Origin: Patescibacteria group bacterium | GTDB taxonomy: Bacteria; Patescibacteriota; Minisyncoccia; Phycocordibacterales; DATDWN01 | Length of the DNA stretch: 37,776 nucleotides | Direction of reading: 5' to 3' | Assembly (NCBI GenBank): GCA_030917185.1 | Contig: JAUPVF010000050.1 | Coordinates: forward strand, 1 to 37,776 | Shown here: positions 4,670 through 28,215 of the stretch, in pieces | Numbering within the stretch: the first letter of the stretch is position 1 | How the letters are laid out: each line of letters opens with the position of its first letter | Notes under the pieces: generated by a model | What the model was told of the DNA's origin: nothing | Seen by the model: only the letters and a program-made list of their open reading frames with translations | Database searches by the model: none | Program-made: the position numbers and the translations under genes

Positions 4670-4678
4670 TGCTATAAT
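4670..4678 (+). promoter_or_regulatory. extended -10 TGcTATAAT ending 6 nt before the frr ATG (leaderless-type promoter)
   Basis: T4670 G4671 c TATAAT 4673-4678, ATG at 4685, no SD in the 6-nt gap. Confidence 0.5.
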
Positions 4679-4684
4679 GCAGGT

Positions 4685-5236: not shown

Positions 5237-5257
5237 AATAAAAATCTCTTTCTCATC

Positions 5258-5340
5258 ATATCTTTTTGAAACACGCGTTCGCGACGGGCTGTCGCGCCGC
5301 TCGGCTCTCGGCTACCCGCCTGCGACGGTTTCAAAAAGAT
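5258..5340 (+). repeat. GC-rich nested palindromic element, copy A
   Basis: ATATCTTTTTGAAAC ... GTTTCAAAAAGAT terminal inverted repeats enclose a GC-rich core. It differs from copies B/C only at six positions inside hairpin 5280-5296. Lies 21 nt after the frr stop. Confidence 0.85.
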
Positions 5341-5388
5341 GTGATTTCAACCAGATTTTTATACATTTGATCCATATCAATACAACAT

Positions 5389-6492
5389 ATGTCTGTCATC
5401 ATATTTATAATTGCACTTGCTGTTTTAATTCTTGTCCATGAGTTTGGGCATTTTATTGTTGCCAAAAAATCTGGCATTCGTGTTGATGAGTTTGGGTTGG
5501 GGTTACCACCCCGAGCATGGGGTAAAAAGTTTGGCGAAACCCTGTATTCTCTCAACTGGATTCCGTTTGGTGGTTTTGTAAAAATATTTGGTGAGGATAT
5601 TCACGAGGACCCAATTTCTGAACAAGATAAACCTCGTAGTTTTTATTACAAACCAAAATGGATTCAATCAGCGGTGCTCGTTGCCGGAGTAACATTCAAT
5701 GCTCTTTTTGCATGGTTACTTATTTCCGTCGGATTTATGATTGGTTTTCCATCTCCAGTTAATTACGTTAAAGACGTTGCAATCAAAGATCCTCACGTGG
5801 TGATATTGCAAGTGCTTCCAGAATCGCCAGCAGAAAAATCAGGTCTTAAATCAGGGGACACACTATTGTTTGTAGGTGCAGGCAACAATTCTTTACAAGA
5901 CGAGGAATTAACTCCAGAACACATTTCATTATTGATTAAAAATAGTAATGGAGAACAAGTTCAAATGTTATATCGACGAGGGGACACTCCTACCCAGACG
6001 ATTTTTATACAACCAAAAACAGGTTTAGTTTCTGATGGGTTTGGTGTCGGTATTTCTATGGATACAATCGGCACACTAAAACTTCCTGTCTGGCAGGCAC
6101 TGTATGAAGGTGGCAAAACTACAGTTGGTCTTATCAAAACAACAGTAATCGGTCTCGGTACATTTTTATGGAATGCGGTGACATTGAAAGCCGACTTGTC
6201 TCAGGTTGCTGGTCCGGTCGGTATTGCTGGTTCCGTTGGTGAGGCACGACAATTGGGTTTTGTATATCTGCTATCACTGGTTGCTCTTATTTCTATTAAT
6301 CTTGCAGTTATCAACCTTGTGCCATTTCCTGCGCTTGATGGGGGACGACTATTATTTATTTTGATTGAGGTTATTATTCACCGACCAATACCACCGAAAG
6401 TATTTCAGTGGGCTAACGCGGTTGGTTTTGCTTTTCTGTTATTGCTTATGTTTGTCATTACGGGGCACGATATTCTTAAATTATTATTGTAA
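5389..6492 (+). CDS. rseP: RIP zinc metalloprotease RseP (site-2 protease, M50 family)
   Basis: HEFGHFIVAKK zinc motif, PDZ-like middle region, NLVPFPALDGG C-terminal motif, multiple TM segments. Confidence 0.9.
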   Translation: MSVIIFIIALAVLILVHEFGHFIVAKKSGIRVDEFGLGLPPRAWGKKFGETLYSLNWIPFGGFVKIFGEDIHEDPISEQDKPRSFYYKPKWIQSAVLVAGVTFNALFAWLLISVGFMIGFPSPVNYVKDVAIKDPHVVILQVLPESPAEKSGLKSGDTLLFVGAGNNSLQDEELTPEHISLLIKNSNGEQVQMLYRRGDTPTQTIFIQPKTGLVSDGFGVGISMDTIGTLKLPVWQALYEGGKTTVGLIKTTVIGLGTFLWNAVTLKADLSQVAGPVGIAGSVGEARQLGFVYLLSLVALISINLAVINLVPFPALDGGRLLFILIEVIIHRPIPPKVFQWANAVGFAFLLLLMFVITGHDILKLLL

Positions 6493-6616
6493 GAAACTCT
6501 CAAATTTGGCGCATTTCTTTGTCGGAATTCAAAAAATGTTTGTCACCGTACATTAAAGTACGGCTCCAAACTTTTTTCTCTCCCTCCGCGAACTGCATCC
6601 AAATTTGAGGGTTTCT
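6492..6616. repeat. 125-bp element bounded by 18-bp inverted repeats (diverged member of the palindromic element family)
   Basis: AGAAACTCTCAAATTTGG (6492-6509) versus the reverse complement of CCAAATTTGAGGGTTTCT (6599-6616): 17 of 18 match. Inner hairpin CCGTAC/GTACGG (6546-6563). Starts on the last base of the rseP stop codon. Confidence 0.7.
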
Positions 6617-6683
6617 TTGTGGCTATATCTGAGCATGGTTATTAATCCTGATTTCTTATTAATGACCTCTGGCGGGTTTTCTT

Positions 6684-6712
6684 TTGCTCAAAAGTCGTTT
6701 TTCCTATATGAT
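6684..6712 (+). promoter_or_regulatory. putative proS promoter TTGCTC-17-TATGAT; the -10 ends 6 nt before the ATG
   Basis: TTGCTC 6684-6689, TATGAT 6707-6712, ATG 6719. The block is duplicated upstream of mreB2. Confidence 0.45.
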
Positions 6713-6718
6713 AAATAA

Positions 6719-7999
6719 ATGAGACAATCACAACTTTTTACAAAAACACGCAAGGAGGCCCCAAGTGATGAGGCCCGCCCGAACGACGGTTCAGTCGGGC
6801 AGGCCTCAAAAAATGCACAATTACTCATTCGTGCAGGGTACATCCAGAAAGAAATGGCTGGAGTATACGACTATCTGCCACTTGGGCTACGAGTGTTCAA
6901 AAAAATAGAAAACATAATTCGTGAGGAAATGGATGTTATTGGTGGGCAGGAGATTTTCATGTCATCACTCCAAGAAAAGGAAACATGGGAAAAAACAAAT
7001 CGATGGGACGATAGTATGGTAGATATTTGGTTCAAAACTAAATTAAAAAATGACACGGAACTTGGTTTGGCGATTACGCATGAGGAACCAATTACTCGGA
7101 TGATTACAAAACATGTGCAGTCACACAAAGACCTGCCTTTTTCTGTCTACCAATTTCAAACAAAATTCAGAAATGAAATCCGTGCCAAAAGTGGCATTAT
7201 GCGTACTCGTGAATTTATTATGAAAGACCTGTATTCTTTTGATAAAGATCAGGAAGGATTGGATGAGTTTTATGGAAAAGCATCAGATGCATATGTACGG
7301 ATTTTTGATAGAGTTGGTTTGGGTGAAAAAACATACAAAACATTTGCTTCTGGTGGAGTTTTTTCTAAATATAGCCATGAGTTTCAGACTATTTGCGATA
7401 CGGGTGAAGATGTGATTTATGTAAATGAAAATAAAAAAATTGCAATTAATAAAGAAGTAAATACAGACGAGGTGTTATCAGACCTTGGTATTTCACGGGA
7501 TGAATTAGTGGAACGAAAAGCGATCGAAGTTGGAAACATTTTCAAACTTGGCACGCGATTTTCTGATGCGCTTGGTTTATTGTACGTTGATGAAAGCGGA
7601 GAGAAAAAACCTGTGGTCATGGGTAGTTACGGGATTGGTCCTGGTAGACTGATGGGTACAATCGTTGAATTGTATTCGGATGATAAGGGGATTGTGTGGC
7701 CCAAAGAAGTCGCACCATTTGCTGTTCATCTTGTTCGGTTGGGCGATAGTGAAGCGGTAGTAAAATTTGCAGATGATTTGTATACAGATATTCGTAAACA
7801 AGGAGTAGAGGTCCTCTATGATGATCGTCCGCTTCGAGCAGGAGAAAAATTTGCTGATTCTGATTTGATTGGTATTCCTGTGCGTTTTGTGGTGAGTGAA
7901 AAAACAGTGGCAGAAGGCAAGGTGGAGGTAAAATTCCGTACAGACAATGACTCGGAGTTGTTAACTGCTGAACAAGCGATGGACAAACTAAAAAACTAA
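6719..7999 (+). CDS. proS: prolyl-tRNA synthetase (short form, too short to carry the bacterial INS editing domain)
   Basis: MRQSQLFTKTRKEAP...NAQLLIRAGYIQKEMAGVYDYLPLG, class II aaRS motifs, anticodon-binding C-terminus. Confidence 0.9.
   Translation: MRQSQLFTKTRKEAPSDEARPNDGSVGQASKNAQLLIRAGYIQKEMAGVYDYLPLGLRVFKKIENIIREEMDVIGGQEIFMSSLQEKETWEKTNRWDDSMVDIWFKTKLKNDTELGLAITHEEPITRMITKHVQSHKDLPFSVYQFQTKFRNEIRAKSGIMRTREFIMKDLYSFDKDQEGLDEFYGKASDAYVRIFDRVGLGEKTYKTFASGGVFSKYSHEFQTICDTGEDVIYVNENKKIAINKEVNTDEVLSDLGISRDELVERKAIEVGNIFKLGTRFSDALGLLYVDESGEKKPVVMGSYGIGPGRLMGTIVELYSDDKGIVWPKEVAPFAVHLVRLGDSEAVVKFADDLYTDIRKQGVEVLYDDRPLRAGEKFADSDLIGIPVRFVVSEKTVAEGKVEVKFRTDNDSELLTAEQAMDKLKN
6770..6807 (+). repeat. 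38-bp GC-rich palindrome inserted in frame in proS (codons 18-30)
   Basis: GAGGCCCGCCCGA (6770-6782) pairs with TCGGGCAGGCCTC (6795-6807), 12 of 13 positions, loop of 12 nt. Shares GAG(G/C)CCCGCCCGAACG with the element core at 31467-31482. Confidence 0.8.
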
Positions 8000-8025
8000 A
8001 TTACCATTACATTAAAGTTAATAAC

Positions 8026-8054
8026 TTGACAAATATATAATATATGTGTATAAT
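8026..8054 (+). promoter_or_regulatory. consensus sigma70-type promoter TTGACA-17-TATAAT
   Basis: TTGACA 8026-8031, TATAAT 8049-8054. GGAGGG SD at 8104-9 before ATG 8113. Confidence 0.7.
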
Positions 8055-8112
8055 ACATATGTAAAGTTCTTAAAATTGGTGGCACCGGCCATAACGTGGT
8101 GCTGGAGGGTTT

Positions 8113-8412
8113 ATGATTCTGCGTGCTTTTTTTGAGGGTGGAGAGGTGAAGAATTTCCCTTTTCCCGAAGAGACCCCGCTTCAGGAGATATACACCTTTT
8201 TCGAGGAGAACGTTCTCGCTCAGGGGAAGATCATATCTGCGGATGTGATCAGCTCTCCAGTAGATGAGGAGGTGGCGGATTTTTGGGAGGATTGTTTTGT
8301 TCTCTCAAAAGATTCCTATTCCCCTGGTCTTGAAGATCCTGGGGAAGGGAGGGTGTACATGTGTTTCTCCCGGTGGGGGGAATACGATGGACAGATCGGT
8401 TGGTTGGTGTAG
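8113..8412 (+). CDS. hypothetical acidic 99-aa protein (orphan, G+C visibly above flanks)
   Basis: ORF with its own consensus promoter, SD and a strong terminator. No recognisable motif. Confidence 0.65.
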   Translation: MILRAFFEGGEVKNFPFPEETPLQEIYTFFEENVLAQGKIISADVISSPVDEEVADFWEDCFVLSKDSYSPGLEDPGEGRVYMCFSRWGEYDGQIGWLV

Positions 8413-18777: not shown

Positions 18778-20487
18778 ATGAAATCCACTTACACAACGCG
18801 GATACGTCTATTGTCGCTGTTTATTTTTTTGTTTGCTCTTTTGATTATTGGCAAGTTGTACATGTTACAGATTGTTAATAATGAAATGTACACAAATAAA
18901 GCAGATCGACAGTATTCCACAACGGGAACCGGTGTGTTTTCTCGGGGTACGATATTTTTTCAGAATAAAGACGGTAGTTTGGTTTCTGCGGCAACACTCA
19001 AATCTGGTTTTATTATTACCATTAATCCACAGATATTAAAGGATCCAGAAACAGTATATGAAAAAATAAATGCATTGTTACCGCTTGACCGGGATGTGTT
19101 TCTGGCAAAAGCATCAAAAAAGAATGACCCATACGAGGAAATCGCAAAACATGTAGATGAAGCGGTTGGAAAACAGATTAGTGCTCTTTCTATTCCAGGA
19201 TTAAAAGTATACAAAGATAAATGGCGTTTTTATCCTGGGGGAAATGTGGCGGCACATACAATAGGTTTTTTGGGGTTTAAGGGTAACGAATATGCGGGAC
19301 GATATGGGCTAGAAAGTCAGTACGAGTCAGTATTAGCCCGCACTGATACAGCATATGTTAATTTTTTTGCTCAGATATTTTCTAATATCAAACAAACAAC
19401 CGCAGGGGACAGTATTAAACAGGAGGGTGATGTTGTGACAACAATAGAGCCAACCGTTCAATCATTTTTTCAGGAAGTTTTAGCAAGCACAACTGCAAAA
19501 TGGAATGCGGATTATGTGGGGGGAATTATTATAAACCCAACAACAGGAGAGATTTATGCGATGGATACATATCCGACATTTGACCCAAACAACACTCAGG
19601 TAGAAAAAAATATCCAAGTTTTTTCTAATCGGCTTGTGGAGGACACCTACGAAATGGGTTCTATTATTAAACCTCTCACTATTGCTGCGGGTATTGATAA
19701 GGGGCTGATTACTGCTCATTCAACATATGATGATACCGGTTCTATGATGGTAAATGGTAAAAAGATTTCTAATTTTGATGGTAAGGCTCGTGGTGTGGTA
19801 GATATGCAACAGGTGCTTTCACAATCATTGAACTTGGGAGTTGCGCATGTTGTGCGGTTGCTTGGTAATACACAATTTACTGACTATATGTATCGGTTTG
19901 GTTTGAATGAAAAAACTGGTATTGATTTGCCGAATGAAGGACGTAATCAAGTCAAAAACTTGGAGGCACCTCGTGATTTGGAACATGTGACTGCGTCGTT
20001 CGGTCAAGGTATCGCACTTACTCCAATGTCTACGGTTCGTGCATTATCGGCTATTGCAAATGGCGGATTGCTTATACATCCTCATGTGGTTAAAAAAATA
20101 AATTACAAAATTGGTTTAGTTGATGAACCTGCAATAGGTGTAGGTGATCGGGTAATTAAAAAAGAAACTGCCGATGAAGTGTCGCGTATGATGGTGTACA
20201 GTGTTGATCATGTGTTGTCTAATGGTGCAATTAAACTAGAAAATTACAGTGTCGCGGCAAAAACAGGTACTGCACAGATTGCTAAAAGTGGAGGCGGGGG
20301 ATACTATGATGATAGGTTTCTGCACTCGTTTGTAGGTTTTTTCCCTGCCTATAATCCGAAGTTTTTAATTTTCTTTTTTGCCTACAATCCCAAGGGGGCA
20401 AAATACGGTTCAGAAACTTTGACCATGCCGTTTAGTGATACAGTACGATTTCTTATTAATTATTACGAGGTCCCTCCCGACCGATAA
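18778..20487 (+). CDS. ftsI: division-type penicillin-binding protein (FtsI/PBP3-like transpeptidase)
   Basis: Trimmed to MKSTYTTRIRLLSLFIF. Motifs SIIKP and KTGTAQ. dcw-cluster position. Confidence 0.85.
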   Translation: MKSTYTTRIRLLSLFIFLFALLIIGKLYMLQIVNNEMYTNKADRQYSTTGTGVFSRGTIFFQNKDGSLVSAATLKSGFIITINPQILKDPETVYEKINALLPLDRDVFLAKASKKNDPYEEIAKHVDEAVGKQISALSIPGLKVYKDKWRFYPGGNVAAHTIGFLGFKGNEYAGRYGLESQYESVLARTDTAYVNFFAQIFSNIKQTTAGDSIKQEGDVVTTIEPTVQSFFQEVLASTTAKWNADYVGGIIINPTTGEIYAMDTYPTFDPNNTQVEKNIQVFSNRLVEDTYEMGSIIKPLTIAAGIDKGLITAHSTYDDTGSMMVNGKKISNFDGKARGVVDMQQVLSQSLNLGVAHVVRLLGNTQFTDYMYRFGLNEKTGIDLPNEGRNQVKNLEAPRDLEHVTASFGQGIALTPMSTVRALSAIANGGLLIHPHVVKKINYKIGLVDEPAIGVGDRVIKKETADEVSRMMVYSVDHVLSNGAIKLENYSVAAKTGTAQIAKSGGGGYYDDRFLHSFVGFFPAYNPKFLIFFFAYNPKGAKYGSETLTMPFSDTVRFLINYYEVPPDR

Positions 20488-20503
20488 AAAATAGGTACAT
20501 ATA

Positions 20504-21802
20504 ATGAATTTCTTTAAGATTTTGATAAAACGTATATTTCAGTACGAAGCACAACTTGTGCTGAAGCGCTATAAACCAAAAATAATTGCCATTGTTGGTA
20601 GTGTTGGCAAGACGACAACACGAGATGCAATATATCTGCTTCTTTCAAAAAAATATTTTGTACGAAAAAGTGAAAAAAGTTTTACGGCTGAACTCGGTGT
20701 TCCGCTTGCTATTATCGGTTGTGAATACGGTACGGGGTCAGTCAATCAATGGGTTTCAAATTTGCTTGAAGGACTACAGTTGCTTCTTGTGCCAAGACGA
20801 TACCCTGAATGGTTGATTTTGGAAATTGATGGTGATAAGCCGGGGGATATATCTGGCATCAGTAGTTGGTTGTCACCAGATATCGTGGTTGTGACTGCGA
20901 TTGGTGATATTCCTGCACATATTGAATCATTTAGTTCAAAAGAGATATTTATTATTGAAAAAAGACATATTCTTGATGCATTGGGTAGTGATGGATTGGT
21001 AATCTATAACGCAGATGATACGGTCGCTACTCAACTGGTGTCATCTGTTACGTGCCGGAAAATATCTTGCGCGCTTGGCGAAAAGGGTGATGTTAAAGCA
21101 ACAACACCAACTATTCTTTATGCAGGTAAACAAAAAGATATTCCAATTGGACTTACATACGATGTGACGTTGGGTGATAATCATGGTACGTTGACTCACC
21201 TCAATGTACTCGGTATTCATGTGGTGTATGCGTCATTATTGGCAATTGCTATTGGTATTGAAAAAAATATACCATGGCAGGATTGTATTGGACTTGGGTC
21301 AACATTATCTGCATTGCCAGGACGGATGAAAATTATTCAAGGGATTAATGATTCTGTTATTATTGATGATTCATACAACGCATCGCCATTGGCTATGGAT
21401 CAGGCGCTTGATGTGTGTCAGCATATCCAAACAACACATAATAAAATACTAGTTGTGGGGGACATGTTGGAACTAGGCAAATACTCTGCCGATTCACATC
21501 GGCATGTTGCCATACGAGCAAAAGATATTATGCAATATGTTTTTTGTGTTGGTATCCGTGCTCAGAGGGTTTATGAAGAGTTGATTAATCTCGGTTTTGA
21601 TAAGGAACGCACAAAAGTTTTTGATCGTGCCGAGTTGGCTGGTTTGGCGGCCAAAGAGGTTCTTGGGGCAGGGGATATTGTGCTCGTCAAAGGTTCTCAG
21701 GCGATGCGTATGGAGCGGGTTGTTGAACAAATCATGCGTCATCCAGAAGACGCTCCCAAACTGCTTGTTCGCCAAGAACCAGAATGGATTGAAAGAGATT
21801 AG
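20504..21802 (+). CDS. murF: UDP-N-acetylmuramoyl-tripeptide--D-alanyl-D-alanine ligase
   Basis: Mur ligase P-loop IVGSVGKTTT and DDSYNASPLAMDQAL (MurF-type DDxYNAxP). 432 aa. Confidence 0.8.
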   Translation: MNFFKILIKRIFQYEAQLVLKRYKPKIIAIVGSVGKTTTRDAIYLLLSKKYFVRKSEKSFTAELGVPLAIIGCEYGTGSVNQWVSNLLEGLQLLLVPRRYPEWLILEIDGDKPGDISGISSWLSPDIVVVTAIGDIPAHIESFSSKEIFIIEKRHILDALGSDGLVIYNADDTVATQLVSSVTCRKISCALGEKGDVKATTPTILYAGKQKDIPIGLTYDVTLGDNHGTLTHLNVLGIHVVYASLLAIAIGIEKNIPWQDCIGLGSTLSALPGRMKIIQGINDSVIIDDSYNASPLAMDQALDVCQHIQTTHNKILVVGDMLELGKYSADSHRHVAIRAKDIMQYVFCVGIRAQRVYEELINLGFDKERTKVFDRAELAGLAAKEVLGAGDIVLVKGSQAMRMERVVEQIMRHPEDAPKLLVRQEPEWIERD

Positions 21803-21851
21803 AATTGATTATGAATAAAAAATAAGGTATTCTGATTTTGTTATTGTTTTC

Positions 21852-21982
21852 GGCCTTATCGTCTATCGGTGAATTTGGGTTGGGACCCAAGTGAACGGTC
21901 GGAGCACGGCGGTGCGAGACGGGGTCGCGAGCAAAGTCAGCAGACTTTGAATCGTGACTAGGACATTGGGTTAATATAGAAG
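21852..21982 (+). pseudogene. tRNA-Glu-derived fragment interrupted by an 88-nt GC-rich hairpin-rich insert
   Basis: 21852-21870 matches tRNA positions 1-19 at 18 of 19 positions. TAGGACAT (21959-21966) matches the next 8 tRNA bases. The insert spans 21871-21958. No anticodon arm or 3' acceptor strand follows. Confidence 0.5.
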
Positions 21983-22011
21983 ATTAAGTTGTTTTTTTGG
22001 AACCATTTTAC

Positions 22012-22083
22012 GGCCCTATCGTCTATCGGTTAGGACATAGCCTTCTCAAGGCTAGAAGCGCGGTTCGATTCCGCGTAGGGTCA
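22012..22083 (+). tRNA. tRNA-Glu (anticodon CUC), CCA not encoded
   Basis: Manual cloverleaf. Acceptor GGCCCTA/TAGGGTC (one G-U), D stem GTCT/GGAC, anticodon stem TAGCC/GGCTA with loop TTCTCAA (CTC at 22045-22047), T arm CGCGG-TTCGATT-CCGCG, discriminator A. Confidence 0.9.
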
Positions 22084-22087
22084 CAGA

Positions 22088-22116
22088 TTGACTTAATGCA
22101 CATTTTGTGATATAAA
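22088..22116 (+). promoter_or_regulatory. promoter TTGACT-17-(TGa)TATAAA for 22134..22349
   Basis: TTGACT 22088-22093, TATAAA 22111-22116. AGAGGT SD before ATG 22134. Confidence 0.6.
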
Positions 22117-22133
22117 CGTATTAGAGGTAAGCG

Positions 22134-22349
22134 ATGATAAATTACGAAGTTTGGTATGTGGAACTCCGTTATCGGGATGAGTCACGTACATGGATGACTT
22201 CTTCCGATCCCAAATCGATCCCTTTCGAGGAAGCAGATGACCAGAAGGCAGTTACTTTTGCCAAGAAACTTCTGAGCTCTCCGAGCGATGATCCTCTAGT
22301 TACCCGAAGGGTTTTCAATAAACTAGTACGGATCGTCGAAGTCAGTTAA
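22134..22349 (+). CDS. hypothetical 71-aa protein
   Basis: ORF with its own promoter, SD and downstream hairpin. No motif recognised. Confidence 0.6.
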   Translation: MINYEVWYVELRYRDESRTWMTSSDPKSIPFEEADDQKAVTFAKKLLSSPSDDPLVTRRVFNKLVRIVEVS

Positions 22350-22354
22350 TCTAG

Positions 22355-22411
22355 CCCGCCTTTCACGGCGACGGTAGAAAACCTGTCAGTCGTATGGCGG
22401 GTTTTCTTTTT
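22355..22411 (+). terminator. long imperfect hairpin plus T-tract
   Basis: CCCGCC (22355-22360) pairs with GGCGGG (22396-22401), with a 35-nt partly paired interior, followed by TTTTCTTTTT. Confidence 0.45.
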
Positions 22412-22555
22412 ATCCCAACTCCACAAAATATCCATTATTTATAGTAATACCAAGTTCCAATTCTATTTTTTTGAATTACAAAAATCTTCCAAAGGTGAGT
22501 TTTTATATCAAAATTATTTAAATATTGTTACAATTAAACATTAGAGGTGTTCTTT

Positions 22556-22825
22556 ATGTTATCTGAAAAAAAAGTGATGGCAGATGGAAAATTCAAAGTT
22601 GGTGATAGGGTTATTTATATAACTCAAGTCAATAACCCCGGTCATTGTCCTCCAGGTCAAAGATGTTCAGGTACTATTATGAATGTGATTTATCTTCGTA
22701 ATGAATCACCATTATATAGAATTGAACTAGACATGGTTTGGAATGATAAGATGTCAGAGTATAGCCGTGGGAAGAAAATGATTAAAGGGAATATTTTTGA
22801 AAAATTTATTTCTCCATTAACCTGA
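22556..22825 (+). CDS. hypothetical 89-aa protein
   Basis: ATG 22556 preferred over GTG 22547 (AGAGGTG SD 6-7 nt upstream). KVGDRVIY-type small beta domain guess only. Confidence 0.6.
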   Translation: MLSEKKVMADGKFKVGDRVIYITQVNNPGHCPPGQRCSGTIMNVIYLRNESPLYRIELDMVWNDKMSEYSRGKKMIKGNIFEKFISPLT

Positions 22826-22849
22826 CGAGCTTACGAATTTTTCCTAAAA

Positions 22850-22886
22850 ACCCGCCAGTTGTATCGGTGGGTTTTATTTTTTTTTA
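22850..22886 (+). terminator. intrinsic terminator
   Basis: ACCCGCC (22850-22856) pairs with GGTGGGT (22866-22872, one G-U), followed by a long T-run. Confidence 0.7.
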
Positions 22887-22982
22887 TTAAACCATTCCTG
22901 ACCGAAAACGTACTCGTGGTTCCGCGAAAGTGACGGCGAGAATGAGGGACGAGGGGCGAATTTCCGCACGGGAAAGTTTTAC

Positions 22983-23010
22983 TTGACAGACCTATATATT
23001 ATGTTATATA
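22983..23010 (+). promoter_or_regulatory. promoter TTGACA-16-(TGt)TATATA for 23077..23787
   Basis: TTGACA 22983-22988, TATATA 23005-23010. Near-duplicate of the promoter at 24463 (ACTTGACAG ... TATGTTATATA). Confidence 0.6.
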
Positions 23011-23076
23011 GTAGTACACAGCTGTTCTTTCACAGAATAGACTACTACTTATACTTTTGTTGAAAAGGGGTTCATT

Positions 23077-23787
23077 ATGAACATGAAATTGAACGCAATC
23101 CTCAAAGAGGAAGCGAAGTCACAAATCACCGAAGTTAAACGCCCCATTTTTTTGGGTGCACAACAAACTGGGATGCAGACCGATTTGTATATCGGTAAAA
23201 CCCAGGTCACGGTCAGGCAGGGCGTGGTCCAATCTGAATTGCAGGTGGATGGACCTATCTCGAAAGAGATAGAAGATTTGGTTGTGGGTGTCCGTGTCGA
23301 AGTGACCCTCAATGAGAGTGTTCTCGGTATTGTGCGGGCCAGAGGTAAGTATAACTTGCCTGGGGATGCTTTGACTATTGGCACGGTTGAGTTGTACATA
23401 ACAGGTACCGTTGAGATTCGTTGCTACGGCCCCACTCGCGAGAACGCCCTTGCTCTCTATGAGCTTATCCGGAGCGGGAAGATTTGCCCGAGCGATGCTT
23501 GGGACAAGTCCCAGATCGTCGGTGGTCCAGATCGTCTCAAAGAAGTCGAGCATGAACTAAAAGAGACGAAAGCGCGTCTTGAGGGAGCGATGTTGCACAT
23601 CACCGGCCTCAACGCCGAGGCCGATCTTTCAGAAAAAACACTTCGGCAGTTTCAGCAAGATTTCGATGAGAAAAATATTCGTTTGCGTCAATTGGCAAGG
23701 ACGCTCGAGAATACCTCACTACTACCGTGGATTTCTCGCTCGGGGGTTGCTGCACAGATTGATGCAATTCTCGACGACATTAAGTAG
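23077..23787 (+). CDS. hypothetical 236-aa protein: beta-rich N-terminal half plus C-terminal coiled coil
   Basis: AAAAGGGG SD 6 nt upstream. G+C visibly above backbone. C-terminal heptad-like LKEVEHELKETKARLEGA...NIRLRQLARTLE. Confidence 0.7.
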   Translation: MNMKLNAILKEEAKSQITEVKRPIFLGAQQTGMQTDLYIGKTQVTVRQGVVQSELQVDGPISKEIEDLVVGVRVEVTLNESVLGIVRARGKYNLPGDALTIGTVELYITGTVEIRCYGPTRENALALYELIRSGKICPSDAWDKSQIVGGPDRLKEVEHELKETKARLEGAMLHITGLNAEADLSEKTLRQFQQDFDEKNIRLRQLARTLENTSLLPWISRSGVAAQIDAILDDIK

Positions 23788-23796
23788 TTCATTCCG

Positions 23797-23840
23797 CCCC
23801 GTACCAAACAAGCCCCGTGCTTGTCTGGTGCGGGGTTTTG
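23797..23840. terminator. two-tier hairpin between convergent genes
   Basis: CCCCGTACCA (23797-23806) pairs with TGGTGCGGGG (23826-23835). Inner ACAAGC/GCTTGT is perfect. Followed by TTTTGTTTT. Confidence 0.7.
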
Positions 23841-23842
23841 TT

Positions 23843-24412
23843 TTATCTCAACTCCGAGGAGTTACCAATCTGTATCCGTTTATGTTCCAGGTAGTATTTC
23901 ATTTTTAATATAAGATTTCGTAGACGTTTTGTTTCCATTCCATTAGGTGACTGGTCAACGTGTAGTATTTTCATACAGAGCATTGTGTGGATTTTAATGA
24001 TGTGTGAAATATGGGCGATTAATACACGGTTACTGTCTCGGTTTATTTCATATTCATTTTTATATCGGGGAGGGTAGTAGACCATGTCTTTGATAACAAC
24101 CCCAAGTGCAGTGTAGAGTGACTCCAACTCTTCTCCATAGCAGATTTCATTTGAGATACATGATGATAATCTGTCACAGATGGTGTGGAGTGCGTGGATT
24201 TGTTCATAATAGACGTGGGAAGAGAAGTGTTTGGTGTGGTGTCGATATAGTTCCATGACGTATGCATATAGGGCAGATGTTGGGTTATGGGTGTGCCAGA
24301 GGGCATGGAGATGTTTGTCTAATGTGCGGTCAGGGGAATATGTAGGGTAGGTGAAAGAGTACGGAGGGTGGGGGTGTACAGGAATGGGTTGTTGAAATAA
24401 TTCAAAACTCAT
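23843..24412 (-). CDS. hypothetical His/Tyr-rich 189-aa protein
   Basis: ORF 23843..24607 trimmed to MSFELFQQPIPVHPHPP, because the longer form runs through the 24463 promoter and into the start of the 24538 gene. No SD seen; start uncertain. Confidence 0.55.
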   Translation of the reverse strand: MSFELFQQPIPVHPHPPYSFTYPTYSPDRTLDKHLHALWHTHNPTSALYAYVMELYRHHTKHFSSHVYYEQIHALHTICDRLSSCISNEICYGEELESLYTALGVVIKDMVYYPPRYKNEYEINRDSNRVLIAHISHIIKIHTMLCMKILHVDQSPNGMETKRLRNLILKMKYYLEHKRIQIGNSSELR

Positions 24413-24462
24413 ATTGTATGTGCTACTTATAAATATATCATATGTGATATACACCGATATAC

Positions 24463-24492
24463 TTGACAGTATAGATACAAGTATGTTATATA
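24463..24492 (+). promoter_or_regulatory. promoter TTGACA-18-(TGt)TATATA for 24538..24936
   Basis: TTGACA 24463-24468, TATATA 24487-24492. GAGAGGAAAGG SD before ATG 24538. Confidence 0.6.
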
Positions 24493-24537
24493 AATAAGAG
24501 ATAGTTCTGTTACAAAAAAAGAGAGGAAAGGATTCTG

Positions 24538-24936
24538 ATGAAAAGGTTTGAGCGGGCGCAGAGCGCCTTTGGTGTGCTGTTGGTGGCTGTAGTAGCCACT
24601 GTGGCATGCCAGAAGATTCAGATGGCTCTCCCTGGATACCAGGGGGAGCCGATATTCGAGGGGGACCGGTTTTCGGTGCAAGTCACCAAAACTCAGTCTC
24701 GGTGTGAGGTGGATCCTGCTGAGATCGCTTACAAATCTCGGCAAGGAACCTCAAGGGATCTTTCATTAGTGGAGGTGGTCAGTGTCAAAGACACTGTTGC
24801 CACCAAAGTCGTTGTACCCGCTCGTGAGAGCGGTTGCGGTACGGGCGAGTTTATTTTTCTTGGAAAAGAAATTGCTCGGCAGGCAAAGTACATGTACACC
24901 CGTCGTCCGCGAGCGGACAACTGGCCATTGCGCTAA
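24538..24936 (+). CDS. small exported protein, possible lipoprotein (imperfect lipobox ATVAC)
   Basis: MKRFERAQSAFGVLLVAVVATVAC signal-like N-terminus. G+C visibly the highest of the local genes. Confidence 0.7.
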   Translation: MKRFERAQSAFGVLLVAVVATVACQKIQMALPGYQGEPIFEGDRFSVQVTKTQSRCEVDPAEIAYKSRQGTSRDLSLVEVVSVKDTVATKVVVPARESGCGTGEFIFLGKEIARQAKYMYTRRPRADNWPLR

Positions 24937-24957
24937 CTTTCCTTCCGTTCATTTTTT

Positions 24958-24983
24958 GAGACGCCTTCACGGGCGTCTCTTTT
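24958..24983 (+). terminator. intrinsic terminator
   Basis: GAGACGCC (24958-24965) pairs with GGCGTCTC (24972-24979), followed by TTTT. Confidence 0.8.
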
Positions 24984-25080
24984 CATACACGATATATTTT
25001 TTGATATTTTTTGAAAATTAATCAATACATATTCACAGGTATGTATAGTATCAATATTTTTTCTGCGATATACTAGATAC

Positions 25081-27825
25081 ATGGAAAAACATCTTGGTGG
25101 TCTGGGCGAACGTTTCTCATCTCCGGAGGAAGAAATCGCTTTTTTACGTGGACGTATCGCAGATACAGAAAAAGAATTACTTGGTAAAAACTATGAAATC
25201 TCCAAAGAAACAATTGTTGCTGAGGAAATTTCTAAATACAGGGGATTGTTGCCAGAACAGATATTGCACGAGACGGCACAATTGGCTGAACATGATATTG
25301 AATCAATCGTACTCAATCTGACGCCAGAAAAACATGATGCGAAAATAGAACAACTGATTGATCTTGCCCGACGCAAAGGTGTCAAAAATGCTTTATCGGT
25401 ATTATCTGCACTGAAAGACCCTCATCTTGAAGATGATTTCCATAAGTTTTTGGTTCAATATGTTGCCCAAGGGTATGTATTTCCACAGGTTAAGACAAAC
25501 AAACCAGAATACCGTGGGTTAGATATTGTGCTGTATGAAGTTGTACTACTAGAAGAAAAAGACAGACATGGCAGTACCGATGTTAAAAAAAGTTTGAAGG
25601 AATTAATTTCTGGGATGGAACAGTTTTTGGCAGGTATGATGTCGGTTGATCAAAAAAATTCACATGGCAGTTATGTAGTTTTTGAAATCGCTAACCCAAA
25701 TGGCAGTGACCAGTTTATTTTTTATGTCGGGGTACCACGTCAGTATCGTGAATTATTTGAAAAACAAATCATCTCCATTTTGGGTACGGTACGATTAACT
25801 GAGGTGGTGGATGACTACAACATATTTAATGAGGAAGGGGTGTCTGTCGGTTCATATCTCGCATTAAAAGAAAGTCCAGTATATCCATTCAAAACATACG
25901 AGGCGTTTGATGTCGATCCATTAAATGTCATATTGAATAGTTTTTCTAAAATCCAAAAACAGGGTGAGGGAGCGGCGATCCAACTGGTATTTGCTCCACA
26001 CGGAGATTATTTTCATAAAAAATATGAATATGTCATTGAACAATTAGAGAAAGGTGTGCCAACCAAAGAAGCGGTCCATGTTCCAGAAGGGTTTTTGGGC
26101 GGTTTCAAAAAAACACTTTCGGGGCTCTTTTTTGCCTCTGCACCAGAAGGTGAAAAGGAAAAGAAAATTGATACAGAGGCGATTGAAAAAATCAAACGTA
26201 AGATTTCTACACCCATTGTGGCAACCAATGTACGAATGATTGTTTCAGCAAAAAGCCGTCCAGATGCTGAGCGGATTTTAGGTACAATAGAATCTGGTTT
26301 TAATCAATTTACTGATACGACATCTAACACGATAGTTCCACATCGTTTGGAAAAAAACCAGTTAAATAAAATGTTTCGGGATTTTTCTTTCCGTACATAT
26401 AATCCAGATTACATCGTTCCTCTTAATTTGCGAGAAGTTTCAACATTGGTGCATTTCCAGACAAGTTCACTTGCACCAACTCCACAGTTAAAACAGACAC
26501 AAGCAACAACTGCACCAGCCCCATCAACGATGGGTACCACGGGGACGGTTTTGGGCGTAAACACGTATAGAAATGTTGATACCACTATTTACATGCGTGA
26601 TGAGGATCGTCTGCGACACATGTATACTATTGGTCAGACAGGTACTGGTAAGACGACGCTGATGAAAAATATGATTATTCAGGATATAGAGGCAGGTAAC
26701 GGTGTTTGTTTTATTGATCCTCATGGTATGGATATTTTAGACGTGTTAGCCAACATTCCCGTAGAACGATTTTCTGATGTGATTTATTTTGATCCAAGTC
26801 ATACTGAACGACCAATGGCTCTCAATATGTTGGAATACGATCATCGGTATCCAGAGCAGAAAACTTTTGTGGTCAATGAAATGCTCGCGATATTTAATAA
26901 ACTGTTTGATATGAAAGTTGCTGGTGGTCCAATGTTTGAGCAGTATTTCAGAAACGCTACTATGCTTGTTGTAGAGGACCCAGACAGTGGATGTACGTTG
27001 TTGGATGTATCTCGTGTGTTGGCAGACAAAGCCTTTCGGCAAGCAAAATTGGCAAAATGTAAGAATCCAATTGTAGTACAGTTTTGGAATGAAGTTGCAG
27101 AAAAAGCAGGTGGGGAAGCGTCACTTGCCAATATCATTCCATATATCACCAGTAAGTTTGATGTGTTCATGGCAAACGACATCATGCGACCGATTATTGC
27201 GCAGGAACATTCATCGTTTGATTTTCGGGATATCATGGATAACAAAAAAATCCTTTTGGTTAATTTGGCTAAAGGCAGACTGGGTGACATCAACGCCAAC
27301 CTCATCGGACTTATTCTTGTTGGCAAGATTTTGATGGCTGCTTTGTCTCGTGCTGATGCTATTGGTACAGATTTCTCTCCATTCTATTTGTACATTGATG
27401 AGTTCCAAAACATAACGACTGATTCTATTAGTACGATTTTGTCCGAAGCACGCAAATACAAATTATCACTTAGTATTGCTCATCAGTTTATAGCTCAGTT
27501 GGATGATAAAATACGTGATGCGGTGTTTGGTAACGTCGGGTCCATTGTTTCGTTTCGTGTTGGGGCTGAGGACGCAGAGTTTTTGGAAAAACAATTTAGT
27601 CCTGAGTTTAGTGCCAAAGATATAATGAATATAGATAACTATAATGCATATGCCAAAATCCTAGTGGAGGGCAAGCCGGTTAAAGCATTTAATATAAAAA
27701 CATTCCCATCTCCAAAAGGGGAGTCTGTGATTGTGGGAACATTAAAACAACTATCATATTTAACATACGGAGGAGACCGCGACGAGATAGAAGCAGAAAT
27801 CACCCAAAAGTATAAAAAAAATTAG
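25081..27825 (+). CDS. soluble FtsK/HerA-superfamily P-loop ATPase with a TraD/VirD4 (type IV coupling protein)-like C-terminal half and an uncharacterised ~515-aa N-terminal half
   Basis: Walker A GQTGTGKT (nt 26632-26655). hhhhDE YLYIDE (27385-27402) followed by FQN. ARKYKLSLSIAHQFIAQL resembles the TraG/TraD C-terminal signature. No TM helix seen. Confidence 0.85.
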   Translation: MEKHLGGLGERFSSPEEEIAFLRGRIADTEKELLGKNYEISKETIVAEEISKYRGLLPEQILHETAQLAEHDIESIVLNLTPEKHDAKIEQLIDLARRKGVKNALSVLSALKDPHLEDDFHKFLVQYVAQGYVFPQVKTNKPEYRGLDIVLYEVVLLEEKDRHGSTDVKKSLKELISGMEQFLAGMMSVDQKNSHGSYVVFEIANPNGSDQFIFYVGVPRQYRELFEKQIISILGTVRLTEVVDDYNIFNEEGVSVGSYLALKESPVYPFKTYEAFDVDPLNVILNSFSKIQKQGEGAAIQLVFAPHGDYFHKKYEYVIEQLEKGVPTKEAVHVPEGFLGGFKKTLSGLFFASAPEGEKEKKIDTEAIEKIKRKISTPIVATNVRMIVSAKSRPDAERILGTIESGFNQFTDTTSNTIVPHRLEKNQLNKMFRDFSFRTYNPDYIVPLNLREVSTLVHFQTSSLAPTPQLKQTQATTAPAPSTMGTTGTVLGVNTYRNVDTTIYMRDEDRLRHMYTIGQTGTGKTTLMKNMIIQDIEAGNGVCFIDPHGMDILDVLANIPVERFSDVIYFDPSHTERPMALNMLEYDHRYPEQKTFVVNEMLAIFNKLFDMKVAGGPMFEQYFRNATMLVVEDPDSGCTLLDVSRVLADKAFRQAKLAKCKNPIVVQFWNEVAEKAGGEASLANIIPYITSKFDVFMANDIMRPIIAQEHSSFDFRDIMDNKKILLVNLAKGRLGDINANLIGLILVGKILMAALSRADAIGTDFSPFYLYIDEFQNITTDSISTILSEARKYKLSLSIAHQFIAQLDDKIRDAVFGNVGSIVSFRVGAEDAEFLEKQFSPEFSAKDIMNIDNYNAYAKILVEGKPVKAFNIKTFPSPKGESVIVGTLKQLSYLTYGGDRDEIEAEITQKYKKN

Positions 27826-27834
27826 AATGAAAAA

Positions 27835-27862
27835 AGAGCCGGCCATTGGGCGGGCTCTTTCT
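27835..27862 (+). terminator. imperfect hairpin plus T-rich tail
   Basis: AGAGCC (27835-27840) pairs with GGCTCT (27853-27858), with inner GC pairs. Confidence 0.55.
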
Positions 27863-27883
27863 GAATGTGGGTGAGGGGACACG

Positions 27884-28144
27884 CTAGTCGCGGTCCCCGT
27901 TGGGAATACTCATCTCCGAGAATACACGTTTCGGAGAGAATCTAACCCTTTTTGATGTGACAGAGATTACTGTCTTACTTTTGTAATCTCTGATAGCTGC
28001 CGAGACTTGCCCCCACTTATTTTGGGGGACTTCGTGTTTCAGTAAGACCATTTCCATGGCCTCGTGAGTATATCCACCGTTCTTTGTATATTCAGTGTGA
28101 TACTCACGGGCCATTACCCTGATACACTCATCAGTGTAAGGCAT
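27884..28144 (-). CDS. hypothetical 86-aa basic protein
   Basis: ORF 27884..28189 trimmed to MPYTDECIRVMAREYH, because the longer form overlaps its own TTGACT-17-TATAAT promoter. Confidence 0.55.
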   Translation of the reverse strand: MPYTDECIRVMAREYHTEYTKNGGYTHEAMEMVLLKHEVPQNKWGQVSAAIRDYKSKTVISVTSKRVRFSPKRVFSEMSIPNGDRD

Positions 28145-28154
28145 TCTGCACACT

Positions 28155-28183
28155 ATTATATTACAAATAGTGTATAAAGTCAA
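28155..28183 (-). promoter_or_regulatory. promoter TTGACT-17-TATAAT (minus strand), 10 nt from ATG 28144
   Basis: On the minus strand: TTGACT 28183-28178, TATAAT 28160-28155. Confidence 0.6.
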
Positions 28184-28215
28184 GTACACCTGTGGATAAC
28201 ACCAAAACCCTTTAA

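What the first reader, a model, noticed from the sequence alone, without database searches (positions are those of the whole stretch)
22084..28200. tRNA-Glu-flanked stretch of compositionally deviant, individually promoted orphan genes
Seen in sequence:
- Directly downstream of tRNA-Glu lie seven genes: 71, 89, 236, 189, 132 (exported), 914 (ATPase) and 86 aa.
- Most have their own TTGACA/TTGACT-N16-18-TATAAT-like promoter, an SD and a hairpin terminator.
- Several (23077.., 24538.., 22134..) look clearly more G+C-rich than the backbone (by eye, not computed).
- Two promoters (22981-23010 and 24461-24492) are near duplicates (ACTTGACAG...TATGTTATATA).
- The stretch replaces what normally follows murF in a dcw cluster.
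Inference: an accessory island, possibly of foreign origin, encoding an unknown function around an exported small protein and a DNA-translocase-like ATPase. No integrase, relaxase or att duplication of the tRNA 3' end is visible, so mobility is not supported.
Basis: partly seen in the sequence, partly recalled or inferred. Interest (0 to 1): 0.6.

Follow-up and report, generated by a model that had tools for sequence, protein, structure and literature searches.

The report
Variable gene slot beside tRNA-Glu
Between a tRNA-Glu gene and a conserved ATPase gene of a tiny-genome (CPR/Patescibacteria) bacterium lies a 3-kb slot that each related lineage fills with different small, self-contained genes. 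It is a recombination hot spot, not one imported island, and the ATPase itself is a core gene.

Summary
tRNA-Glu(CTC), the seven genes (71, 89, 236, 189, 132, 914, 86 aa), their promoters and terminators, and the duplicated promoter all check out. Only two genes (236 aa, 132 aa) are significantly G+C-rich.

The stretch is not one island. tRNA-Glu and the 914-aa VirD4/TraD-like ATPase hold this position, between murF and yqeY, across the family. The ATPase occurs in 41 of 41 relatives and has genome-typical G+C.

What varies is the 3-kb slot between them. Every genus fills it differently. In a roughly 90 %-identical sister genome the content is swapped from 4 nt after the tRNA 3' end up to the 236-aa gene's promoter.

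The sister and four other genera carry a structured module after tRNA-Glu that ends in an 18-nt copy of the tRNA 3' end. The window keeps only a 33-nt remnant, just past the 71- and 89-aa genes. So an att-like footprint does exist, although no integrase is present.

This scan noted the same trailing-module family earlier in other CPR genomes.

The small genes have no known relatives. The 236-aa gene belongs to a real family with a conserved leader. Its G+C excess persists across hosts, which argues against recent foreign import.

The parts
21852..21982 (+). Leading pseudo-tRNA: a copy of tRNA-Glu positions 1-19 (17 of 18 match), an 88-nt G+C-rich insert, then decay
   Evidence: One search found the 5' copy at -160. 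The same feature lies at -159 to -172 in L038, G002 and G020. It was noted earlier as e1-3312269.
22012..22084 (+). tRNA-Glu (anticodon CTC), a conserved resident of the murF-to-ATPase interval
   Evidence: ARAGORN and Rfam. Present in that interval in all 11 relatives whose locus holds both murF and the ATPase, on either strand.
22089..22117 (+). Promoter-like site TTGACT-17-TATAAA, starting 5 nt after the tRNA end ('empty site' junction)
   Evidence: Read from the sequence. The same junction (tRNA end or its copy, 3-6 nt, then TTGAC) is seen in G012, G009 and after the module copies in L038, G013, G002 and G020.
22134..22349 (+). 71-aa gene; small soluble protein with patchy distribution
   Evidence: Homologues of 44-49 % identity in 3 of 62 family genomes, at other loci. 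No family or structure match.
22351..22421 (+). Terminator plus 'tail block', shared at 93 % with the sister genome behind a different gene
   Evidence: blastn of L038 3719-3789; terminator scan at 22376-22407. A 24-nt block recurs after the 236-aa gene of L038.
22556..22825 (+). 89-aa strict ORFan (A+T-rich, G+C 0.326)
   Evidence: Only itself among 5.8 billion proteins and 0 of 62 family genomes. Present on 9 contigs of the same population.
22894..22982 (+). Debris of a tRNA-trailing module. The first 33 nt equal the 3' end of the intact module of the sister genome. A decayed tRNA 3'-end copy lies at 22917-22934, followed by a G+C-rich block with a GAGYGAYGRCGA-like motif.
   Evidence: Not a member of the YPAL-like repeat family of this genome.
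22980..23012 (+). Promoter of the 236-aa gene (TTGACA...TATAGT, 11 of 12), a paralogue of the promoter at 24460
23020..23076 (+). 5' leader conserved at nucleotide level in all five loci of the 236-aa gene family (AGCTGTTCTTTCACAGAATAGACTACTAC...GAAAGGAG)
   Evidence: No covariation-supported structure was found.
23077..23787 (+). 236-aa gene: N-terminal beta domain, long coiled-coil helix and short C-terminal helix; G+C-rich
   Evidence: 12 homologues of 41-91 % identity; 81 cluster representatives by profile search; dN/dS 0.17 against the sister; AlphaFold2 pLDDT 83.5; no fold match.
23810..23838 (.). Bidirectional terminator between the convergent 236-aa and 189-aa genes
   Evidence: 12-bp stem.
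23843..24412 (-). 189-aa gene: His-rich helical bundle with a disordered N-terminus
   Evidence: Homologues in L038 (85 %) and at the same position in G012 (37 %). AlphaFold2 pLDDT 63, pTM 0.64. Only non-significant Dps/ferritin-like matches.
24460..24492 (+). Promoter of the 132-aa gene (TTGACA-18-TATATA with TGT upstream), a paralogue of the promoter at 22980
24538..24936 (+). 132-aa predicted lipoprotein (K2/R3, hydrophobic core, ..ATVAC24); the most G+C-rich gene of the stretch
   Evidence: Hydrophobic segment 6-32. The lipobox was read from the sequence against the PROSITE PS51257 rule. Homologue directly upstream of the ATPase in G012 (41-45 %) and three close homologues.
24958..24979 (+). 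Terminator after the 132-aa gene
25081..27825 (+). 914-aa core ATPase: VirD4/TraD-like (T4CP-type) C-terminal half and an N-terminal half of unknown function (DUF8128). This is backbone, not island.
   Evidence: PMC12102498.
27884..28144 (-). 86-aa gene in a second small variable gap (ATPase to yqeY)
   Evidence: Homologue of 47 % identity at the same place in G012 only. Promoter at 28183-28155.

Best explanation
The stretch is a conserved backbone interrupted by two variable slots.

Shown:
- The order murF, tRNA-Glu(CTC), VirD4/TraD-like ATPase, yqeY is the ancestral arrangement of this CPR family.
- The 3.0-kb interval between the tRNA and the ATPase (22085-25080) holds different genes in every genus. 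So does the 0.4-kb interval after the ATPase.
- In the window the fill is five plus one single-gene units, each with its own promoter, ribosome-binding site and terminator.

Inferred mechanism:
- Turnover is driven by recombination at the 3' end of tRNA-Glu and at reusable junction sequences (terminator blocks, duplicated promoters).
- In a sister genome of about 90 % identity, homology stops 4 nt after the tRNA and resumes at the promoter of the 236-aa gene. In between, the window has the 71- and 89-aa genes. The sister has a 200-nt structured trailing module ending in an 18-nt copy of the tRNA 3' end, followed by two unrelated genes.
- The window keeps the last 33 nt of that module beyond the 89-aa gene. 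The 71- and 89-aa genes therefore sit between the tRNA (attL-like) and a decayed attR-like copy.
- The recombinase acts in trans or has been lost.

Gene products:
- The products are lineage-specific proteins of unknown function: one lipoprotein, one coiled-coil protein with a conserved leader, one His-rich helical bundle, and three very small proteins.
- Most probably they are dispensable, fast-evolving surface or accessory factors of an epibiotic cell. This last point is a guess.
- Their raised G+C is a lasting trait of these gene families, not a mark of recent import.
For: Backbone:
- The ATPase is found in 41 of 41 relatives and at 60-72 % identity in all 24 family genomes, full length in nearly all.
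- The order mraZ-rsmH-ftsL-pbp-murF-[gap]-ATPase-[gap]-yqeY-rmuC-rplU-recR-dnaB is kept in the family.
- tRNA-Glu lies in the gap in all 11 relatives whose locus holds both murF and the ATPase, on either strand.
- ATPase G+C equals the genome's.

Variability:
- The gap is 2.0-8.7 kb long. Its contents are unrelated between genera: AlkD-like, DgkA-like, NUDIX, GDSL, pilin, Fic/Doc with HTH, and GIY-YIG genes.
- The window's small genes are patchy or unique.

Breakpoints:
- blastn of window against L038 is collinear over 19115-22088 (90.8 %) and 22989-24429 (88.8 %). The interior is 900 bp in the window and 1678 bp of unrelated sequence in L038.

tRNA-end repeats:
- 3' copies (15-18 of 18 nt) lie 105-278 nt downstream of tRNA-Glu in L038, G002 (two copies), G013 and G020.
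- In the window, G012 and G009 the tRNA abuts a TTGAC promoter directly, which is the empty-site state.
- Window 22894-22926 is 100 % identical to L038 3133-3165.
- The same module type follows at least 9 of 32 tRNA genes in this genome, with covarying hairpin stems.

Real genes:
- The 236-aa family is real: and dN/dS 0.17.
- The same gene order occurs in 9 independent contigs.

Persistent G+C:
-.
Against: - No integrase, excisionase or transposase lies in the window's slot. The only recombinase-like trace in a relative's slot is sub-threshold (Zn_ribbon_recom, E 0.048).
- The attR-like copy in the window is badly decayed. It matches for 9-10 nt and about 6 of the next 9, so the bracketing of the 71- and 89-aa genes rests mainly on the 33-nt identity with the sister's module.
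- The 189-, 132- and 86-aa genes are syntenic with G012. They may be vertically inherited and simply fast-evolving, with no insertion involved.
- The functions of all six small proteins are untested.
Confidence: 0.6

Rival explanations
1. There is no mobile mechanism. The slot genes are vertically inherited, lineage-specific genes that evolve very fast or arise and die in place. The differences between genera are divergence and loss, and the tRNA-end copies are unrelated decoration of the tRNA operon.
For: - The 189-, 132- and 86-aa genes keep their positions in the nearest genus G012 at only 37-47 % identity, while core proteins are 65-88 % identical.
- G+C excess is retained in both genera.
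- No recombinase lies in the slot.
Against: - The sister genome at about 90 % DNA identity has completely unrelated DNA and genes between sharp breakpoints. This cannot be divergence.
- Homologues of the 71- and 236-aa genes lie at other loci in other genera.
- The trailing module is present or absent at the same tRNA between sister genomes.
Confidence: 0.22
2. The small genes, at least the 132-aa lipoprotein and the 86-aa protein, form a functional module with the ATPase. They could be substrates, adaptors or a membrane anchor for a soluble coupling-protein-like motor.
For: - The order 132-aa gene, ATPase, 86-aa gene is conserved in two genera.
- The ATPase lacks a membrane anchor of its own.
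- The ATPase lies far from virB4, which is on contig C19.
Against: - In the other 12 or more genera the gene upstream of the ATPase is AlkD-like, DgkA-like, GDSL or another unrelated gene, and the downstream gap holds no homologue.
- Each gene has its own promoter and terminator.
- The ATPase is universal while the small genes are nearly unique.
Confidence: 0.1
3. The whole stretch from tRNA-Glu to yqeY, ATPase included, is one foreign integrated island.
For: - It lies next to a tRNA.
- Two genes are G+C-rich.
- The ATPase is of a conjugation-type family and matches a phage-derived family of unknown function (phrog_5156).
Against: - The ATPase is core and syntenic in 24 of 24 family genomes and occurs in 41 of 41 relatives.
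- Its composition is genome-typical.
- VirD4-like genes are near-universal in Patescibacteria at about two per genome (PMC12102498), and this genome also has two.
Confidence: 0.03
4. The G+C-rich genes are an assembly or binning artefact, with foreign reads joined into the contig.
For: This is a fragmented metagenome-assembled genome (60 contigs, 1.6 % contamination).
Against: - The same gene order is found on 9 contigs from several sequencing runs and, for the 236- and 189-aa genes, in the sister genome from other samples.
- Homologues are G+C-rich inside low-G+C CPR contigs elsewhere.
Confidence: 0.02

Closest known systems
tRNA-linked genomic islets and islands (integrase-mediated insertion at the T-loop-to-3'-end of a tRNA gene) and their integrase-less derivatives (CIMEs)
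   Same: - Variable DNA starts within a few nucleotides of the tRNA 3' end.
- Direct repeats of the last 16-18 nt of the tRNA occur in sister and related genomes.
- Content is patchy and lineage-specific, and some genes have atypical composition.
   Different: - No integrase lies in or near the slot.
- The repeat in the window is decayed.
- The units are tiny single genes with their own promoters, not a multi-gene element.
- The atypical G+C persists over long divergence.
- The repeat belongs to a structured roughly 200-nt module that also carries an inverted copy of the tRNA end.
Structured modules trailing tRNA genes in CPR genomes
   Same: Same order of parts in the sister genome's tRNA-Glu and at 9 or more other tRNA genes of this genome: terminator hairpin, inverted copy of the tRNA 3' end, hairpins, then a direct copy of the tRNA 3' end.
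   Different: At the window's own tRNA-Glu the module is missing except for a displaced 33-nt remnant. That makes this locus an empty-versus-filled comparison rather than another copy.
Type IV coupling proteins (VirD4/TraD/TraG) of Patescibacteria, as surveyed in PMC12102498
   Same: - Walker A and B motifs and a TraG-D_C domain.
- Two homologues per genome.
- Encoded far from virB4, with no relaxase.
   Different: - No N-terminal membrane anchor.
- A roughly 490-aa N-terminal half (DUF8128) of unknown function.
- Scores far below every curated T4CP model cut-off.
Integron gene-cassette arrays
   Same: A row of small, unrelated, single-gene units at one recombination-prone site.
   Different: - Each unit here has its own promoter and terminator.
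- No attC-type sites were seen between units, and no intI lies in the stretch. IntI was not searched for in the rest of the genome.
- The anchor is a tRNA gene.

Membership tests
tRNA-linked integrative genomic island | Variable DNA begins at or within the 3' end of a tRNA gene | tested here: met
   Homology with the sister genome stops at 22088, 4 nt after tRNA-Glu.
tRNA-linked integrative genomic island | Direct repeat of the tRNA 3' end at the distal border | tested here: inconclusive
   In the window only a decayed copy at 22917-22934. Intact copies of 15-18 of 18 nt occur in L038, G002, G013 and G020.
tRNA-linked integrative genomic island | Integrase or recombinase gene inside the element | tested here: not met
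   No recombinase domain in any slot gene. One serine recombinase lies elsewhere in the genome, at C20.
tRNA-linked integrative genomic island | Composition different from the host genome | tested here: inconclusive
   Two of six small genes are significant (z 2.9 and 3.4). The slot as a whole has G+C 0.426, z 1.6. The excess persists in homologues across hosts.
tRNA-linked integrative genomic island | Present or absent among close relatives | tested here: met
   Met for the small genes. Not met for the ATPase or the tRNA.
Type IV coupling protein (VirD4/TraD/TraG) | P-loop NTPase with Walker A and B motifs and a TraG-D_C domain | tested here: met
   GQTGTGKT at 518 and YLYIDE at 769. PF12696 scores 27.3 bits against a cut-off of 22.
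Type IV coupling protein (VirD4/TraD/TraG) | N-terminal transmembrane anchor | tested here: not met
   No hydrophobic 19-mer before residue 737.
Type IV coupling protein (VirD4/TraD/TraG) | Score above a curated T4CP model cut-off | tested here: not met
   The best NCBIfam match is TIGR03743 at 50.6 bits against a cut-off of 366.
Type IV coupling protein (VirD4/TraD/TraG) | Encoded with a relaxase or other T4SS genes | tested here: not met
   None in the window. A VirB4-like gene lies on contig C19.
tRNA-trailing structured module (scan family e1-1220165) | Terminator hairpin, inverted copy and direct copy of the cognate tRNA 3' end, directly after the tRNA | tested here: not met
   Absent after the window's tRNA-Glu, where only a 33-nt remnant lies 0.8 kb away. 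Met in L038, G013, G002 and G020 and at 9 or more other tRNAs of this genome.
tRNA-trailing structured module (scan family e1-1220165) | Hairpin with conserved loop GAGYGAYGRCGA and covarying stem | tested here: met
   10 copies with 6-12-bp stems of different sequence. A loop-like motif also occurs in the window's debris at 22927-22945, by eye.

The most novel reading that the evidence does not exclude
The structured modules that trail tRNA genes in CPR genomes may act as landing pads. By renewing a copy of the tRNA 3' end next to a promoter-ready junction, they would let promoter-bearing single-gene cassettes be captured, swapped and lost at tRNA genes. This would be a tRNA-anchored gene-capture system without a resident integrase, and it would feed these minimal genomes with fast-evolving, persistently G+C-rich accessory genes.
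Probability: 0.12. Interest if true: 0.8.

Novelty: new member of a known kind. Interest (0 to 1): 0.4.

Why it matters
CPR bacteria have tiny genomes that seem to leave little room for accessory DNA. Pinpointing where and how lineage-specific genes turn over shows how these cells diversify.

This locus gives a clean comparison. The backbone is fixed across a family. The slot changes between sister genomes exactly at a tRNA 3' end. And there is an empty-versus-filled state for a tRNA-trailing module that this scan had seen only as copies.

The analysis also removes a false lead. The conjugation-type ATPase is a core gene of the lineage, not cargo of an island.

The persistent G+C excess of the orphan families warns against reading deviant composition as recent import.

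Tried and rejected
- G+C-rich genes cluster near tRNA genes: rejected. 28 of 544 ORFs of 100 aa or more are G+C-rich, and they are not enriched within 1-3 kb of tRNAs (Fisher p 0.11-0.18).
- The G+C-rich non-coding blocks (21871-21958, 22895-22978) belong to the genome's YPAL-like palindromic repeat family: rejected, no similarity.
- Known RNA families for the tRNA-flanking modules or the leader: none in Rfam at gathering threshold (window) or at E up to 1 (four loci).
- Phage or defence origin of the small genes: no PHROG or PADLOC match.
- Sequence or fold relatives with solved structures: none for the 236-, 189-, 132- and 71-aa proteins. The profile of the 236-aa family gives only coiled-coil noise. 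Foldseek against PDB and BFVD gives nothing with E at or below 0.001.
- A recombinase remnant beside tRNA-Glu in G016: only Zn_ribbon_recom at E 0.048, so not counted.
- Secondary structure in the conserved leader: a 7-bp hairpin without compensatory changes.
- More copies of the leader: one exact match in the metagenome collection, already known, and none in 40 relatives.
- Promoters abut tRNA ends as a general rule: only 2 of 32 tRNAs (p 0.026), which is weak.
- Paralogues of the six small genes in the same genome: none.

Full report
**Anatomy**

The window is contig C49 of a 568-kb, 60-contig genome that is 88.8 % complete. Its relatives have genomes of 0.5-0.9 Mb, so this is a CPR/Patescibacteria organism. 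One family member is deposited as 'uncultured Candidatus Saccharibacteria bacterium'; I did not verify that label.

- tRNA-Glu(CTC) lies at 22012-22084.
- Downstream lie genes of 71 aa (22134-22349), 89 aa (22556-22825) and 236 aa (23077-23787).
- Then come 189 aa on the minus strand (23843-24412), 132 aa (24538-24936) and 914 aa (25081-27825).
- Last is 86 aa on the minus strand (27884-28144).
- Independent gene calls on nine other contigs of the same population give the same sizes and order.
- Strong terminator hairpins follow the 71-, 236- and 132-aa genes and the 89-aa gene (by eye).
- The two best promoter matches of the region (11 of 12) sit in front of the 236-aa and 86-aa genes.
- The overall counts of promoter-like and terminator-like sites do not exceed those in shuffled sequence. 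The evidence is their placement, not their number.

**Composition**

The genome has G+C 0.393. All comparisons below are with genome windows of the same length.

| Feature | G+C | Standing |
|---|---|---|
| 236-aa gene | 0.495 | z 2.9, top 1.5 % |
| 132-aa gene | 0.536 | z 3.4, top 0.7 % |
| 71-aa gene | 0.444 | not significant |
| 89-aa gene | 0.326 | low |
| ATPase | 0.391 | typical |

- GC3 is 0.54 and 0.56 for the 236- and 132-aa genes. It is 0.30-0.33 for murF, yqeY and the ATPase.
- The two deviant genes belong to a minority of 28 G+C-rich ORFs among 544 ORFs of 100 aa or more.

**What is core and what is variable**

- The ATPase is found in 41 of 41 relatives, and at 60-72 % identity in all 24 family genomes, nearly always at full length. 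Nearly every genome also has a second paralogue of about 600 aa.
- tblastn of the window's proteins on 20 fetched loci shows one conserved order in the family: mraZ, rsmH, ftsL, pbp, murF, [gap], ATPase, [gap], yqeY(-), rmuC, rplU, recR(-), dnaB(-).
- tRNA-Glu(CTC) lies in the first gap in all 11 relatives whose locus holds both murF and the ATPase, on either strand.
- The dcw cluster therefore stops after murF throughout the family. mraY is on contig C27. Nothing has been 'replaced' in this genome.
- The first gap is 2.0-8.7 kb long. Its content differs by genus: AlkD-like, DgkA-like, NUDIX, GDSL, a pilin, a Fic/Doc gene with an HTH gene, and a GIY-YIG gene.

Distribution of the window's own slot genes:

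| Gene | Found in |
|---|---|
| 236 aa | 3 of 40 relatives, at other loci |
| 132 aa | 1 of 62 other family genomes |
| 189 aa | 1-2 of 62 |
| 71 aa | 3 of 62, at other loci |
| 89 aa | 0 of 62, and only itself among 5.8 billion proteins |

The nearest genus (G012) shares the 189-, 132- and 86-aa genes at the same positions, at 37-47 % identity.

**The sister genome gives the breakpoints**

Contig L038 carries a 91 %-identical copy of the 236-aa protein. blastn against the window shows three things:

- The two are collinear over 19115-22088 (90.8 %) and 22989-24429 (88.8 %).
- Between these blocks the window has 900 bp holding the 71- and 89-aa genes.
- L038 instead has 1678 bp holding a non-coding module and genes of 152 and 209 aa, with a doubtful 44-aa gene call between them.

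The left breakpoint is 4 nt after the tRNA 3' end. The right one is at the promoter of the 236-aa gene. Short shared pieces appear in a different order. One is a 71-nt terminator block (22351-22421). Another is a 33-nt block (22894-22926), 100 % identical to L038 3133-3165.

**tRNA-end copies**

In L038 the 33-nt block is the end of a roughly 200-nt module that directly follows tRNA-Glu. The module has these parts:

- a terminator hairpin;
- an inverted copy of the tRNA 3' end;
- hairpins;
- conserved single-stranded blocks;
- a direct copy of the last 18 nt of the tRNA (17 of 18), followed 6 nt later by TTGACA.

Distribution of the module and related copies:

- The same module type follows tRNA-Glu in G013, G002 (two in tandem) and G020, each ending in 15-18 of 18 nt of that genome's own tRNA.
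- The hairpin stems differ in sequence between L038 and G013 while keeping their pairing.
- In the window, G012 and G009 the tRNA itself abuts TTGAC. This is the empty state of the same junction.
- An 18-nt copy of the tRNA 5' end lies 159-172 nt upstream in the window, L038, G002 and G020.

In the window the direct copy is decayed after GGTTCCGCG (22917-22934). The 71- and 89-aa genes thus lie between the intact tRNA and a relic of such a copy.

The module type is genome-wide:

- At least 9 of 32 tRNA genes carry one: Cys, Lys, Ile, Met, Asp (two), two Ser and Ala, and probably Leu and Gly.
- Ten copies of the loop GAGYGAYGRCGA are closed by 6-12-bp stems of differing sequence.
- Rfam has no match.
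- Earlier notes of this scan describe the same family in other CPR genomes. What I add is the empty-versus-filled comparison at one tRNA.

**The genes**

*236-aa protein.*
- It heads a real family: 12 full-length homologues of 41-91 % identity and 81 cluster representatives by profile search.
- dN/dS against the sister is 0.17.
- The AlphaFold2 model has pLDDT 83.5. It shows a beta-rich domain (residues 1-133), a 60-residue helix and a short C-terminal helix.
- No PDB or viral fold match reaches significance.

Its homologues sit in core chromosomal contexts:

| Locus | Context |
|---|---|
| L037 | after the dcw genes and tRNA-Glu, and before macB |
| L041 | before ybeY-ftsA-ftsZ |
| L043 | between an Asn/Asp-type tRNA synthetase gene and macB |

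All five loci share a leader of about 55 nt that is conserved at nucleotide level (AGCTGTTCTTTCACAGAATAGACTACTAC...GAAAGGAG). The proteins themselves are only 47-55 % identical. The leader shows no supported secondary structure.

*132-aa protein.* It has a lipoprotein-type signal (K2, R3, hydrophobic core, ATVAC24; plus the PROSITE lipobox rule).

*189-aa protein.* It models as a His-rich helical bundle (pLDDT 63, pTM 0.64). Only non-significant ferritin/Dps-like matches were found.

*All six small proteins.* None matches Pfam, NCBIfam, PHROGs or PADLOC.

**Duplicated promoter**

The promoters of the 236- and 132-aa genes share two blocks, TACTTGACAG and TATGTTATATA. Each block occurs only at these two places in the genome. 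The sister genome's promoter for the 236-aa gene is different. The duplicate therefore arose, or was copied, within this lineage.

**G+C excess is a family trait**

- Homologues of the 236-aa gene have G+C 0.47-0.52 in hosts whose flanks are 0.38-0.42.
- G012's copies of the 132- and 86-aa genes have 0.49 against 0.415-0.416 in the rest of the locus.
- These copies are 35-55 % identical in protein, and some are syntenic.
- The excess has therefore lasted a long time. Recent import from one G+C-rich donor is unlikely.
- Two readings remain open and untested: repeated exchange within a G+C-richer gene pool, or GC-biased gene conversion at a recombination hot spot.

**The ATPase**

- Walker A (GQTGTGKT, 518), Walker B (YLYIDE, 769) and a TraG-D_C domain place the C-terminal half with VirD4/TraD-type coupling proteins.
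- Scores are far below the curated model cut-offs.
- It has no membrane anchor and no sequence relative with a solved structure.
- The N-terminal half is tagged DUF8128 in precomputed annotations.
- A VirB4-like gene lies on another contig.
- This fits the survey in PMC12102498. That paper found 5,713 VirD4-like genes in 2,918 of 3,035 Patescibacteria genomes, only 148 of them near virB4. The homologue was not essential in Southlakia epibionticum, and the authors suggest it may have been co-opted for another role.

**Verdict**

The 'one accessory island' reading is not.
- The best account is a fixed backbone with a hypervariable slot at the 3' flank of tRNA-Glu. Its turnover uses the tRNA end and reusable junction sequences.
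- Shown: the backbone, the variability, the breakpoints and the repeats.
- Inferred: the recombination mechanism, the enzyme and the roles of the proteins.

Noticed in passing
G000 contigs C29:1729-1871, C32:14620-14800, C59:440-621, C18:12575-12772, C18:13156-13512, C13:10335-10560, C32:4052-4237, C8:5244-5420: At least nine of the genome's 32 tRNA genes are followed by a 140-200-nt structured module: terminator hairpin, inverted copy and direct copy of that tRNA's own 3' end, and a hairpin with loop GAGYGAYGRCGA. Module cores are nearly identical between different tRNAs and between genera.
   Followed up: partly
window 23020-23076; L038 4687-4743; L037 9944-10000; L041 1953-2007; L043 5946-6000: A leader of about 55 nt in front of every member of the 236-aa gene family is conserved at nucleotide level, although the proteins are only 47-55 % identical. 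It has no Rfam match and no supported structure. It may be an operator or a protein-binding site.
   Followed up: partly
window 21852-21982: A copy of the first 18-19 nt of tRNA-Glu lies 160 nt upstream of the tRNA, with an 88-nt G+C-rich insert. The same feature sits at -159 to -172 in three other genomes. Similar 5' copies lie upstream of tRNA-Gly(CCC), tRNA-Ser(ACT) and tRNA-Asn in this genome.
   Followed up: partly
L013 (G012:C6) 2319-8365: In the nearest genus the same slot holds two large secreted proteins (392 and 1620 aa, minus strand), inserted between the homologues of the 189-aa and 132-aa genes.
   Followed up: no
L014 (G002:C7) 6209-6927: The slot of another genus holds a Fic/Doc gene next to an HTH_17 (excisionase-type) gene, a probable toxin-antitoxin pair.
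   Followed up: no
G000:C37:4873-6099: A second, shorter VirD4/TraD-like paralogue (43-45 % identity to residues 497-908) is present in this genome and in nearly every relative. A G+C-rich 260-aa ORF lies 2.8 kb away at C37:8901-9683.
   Followed up: no
window 25040-25080: No Shine-Dalgarno-like sequence precedes the ATPase start codon. TATACT lies 6 nt upstream of the ATG, so the mRNA might be leaderless.
   Followed up: no
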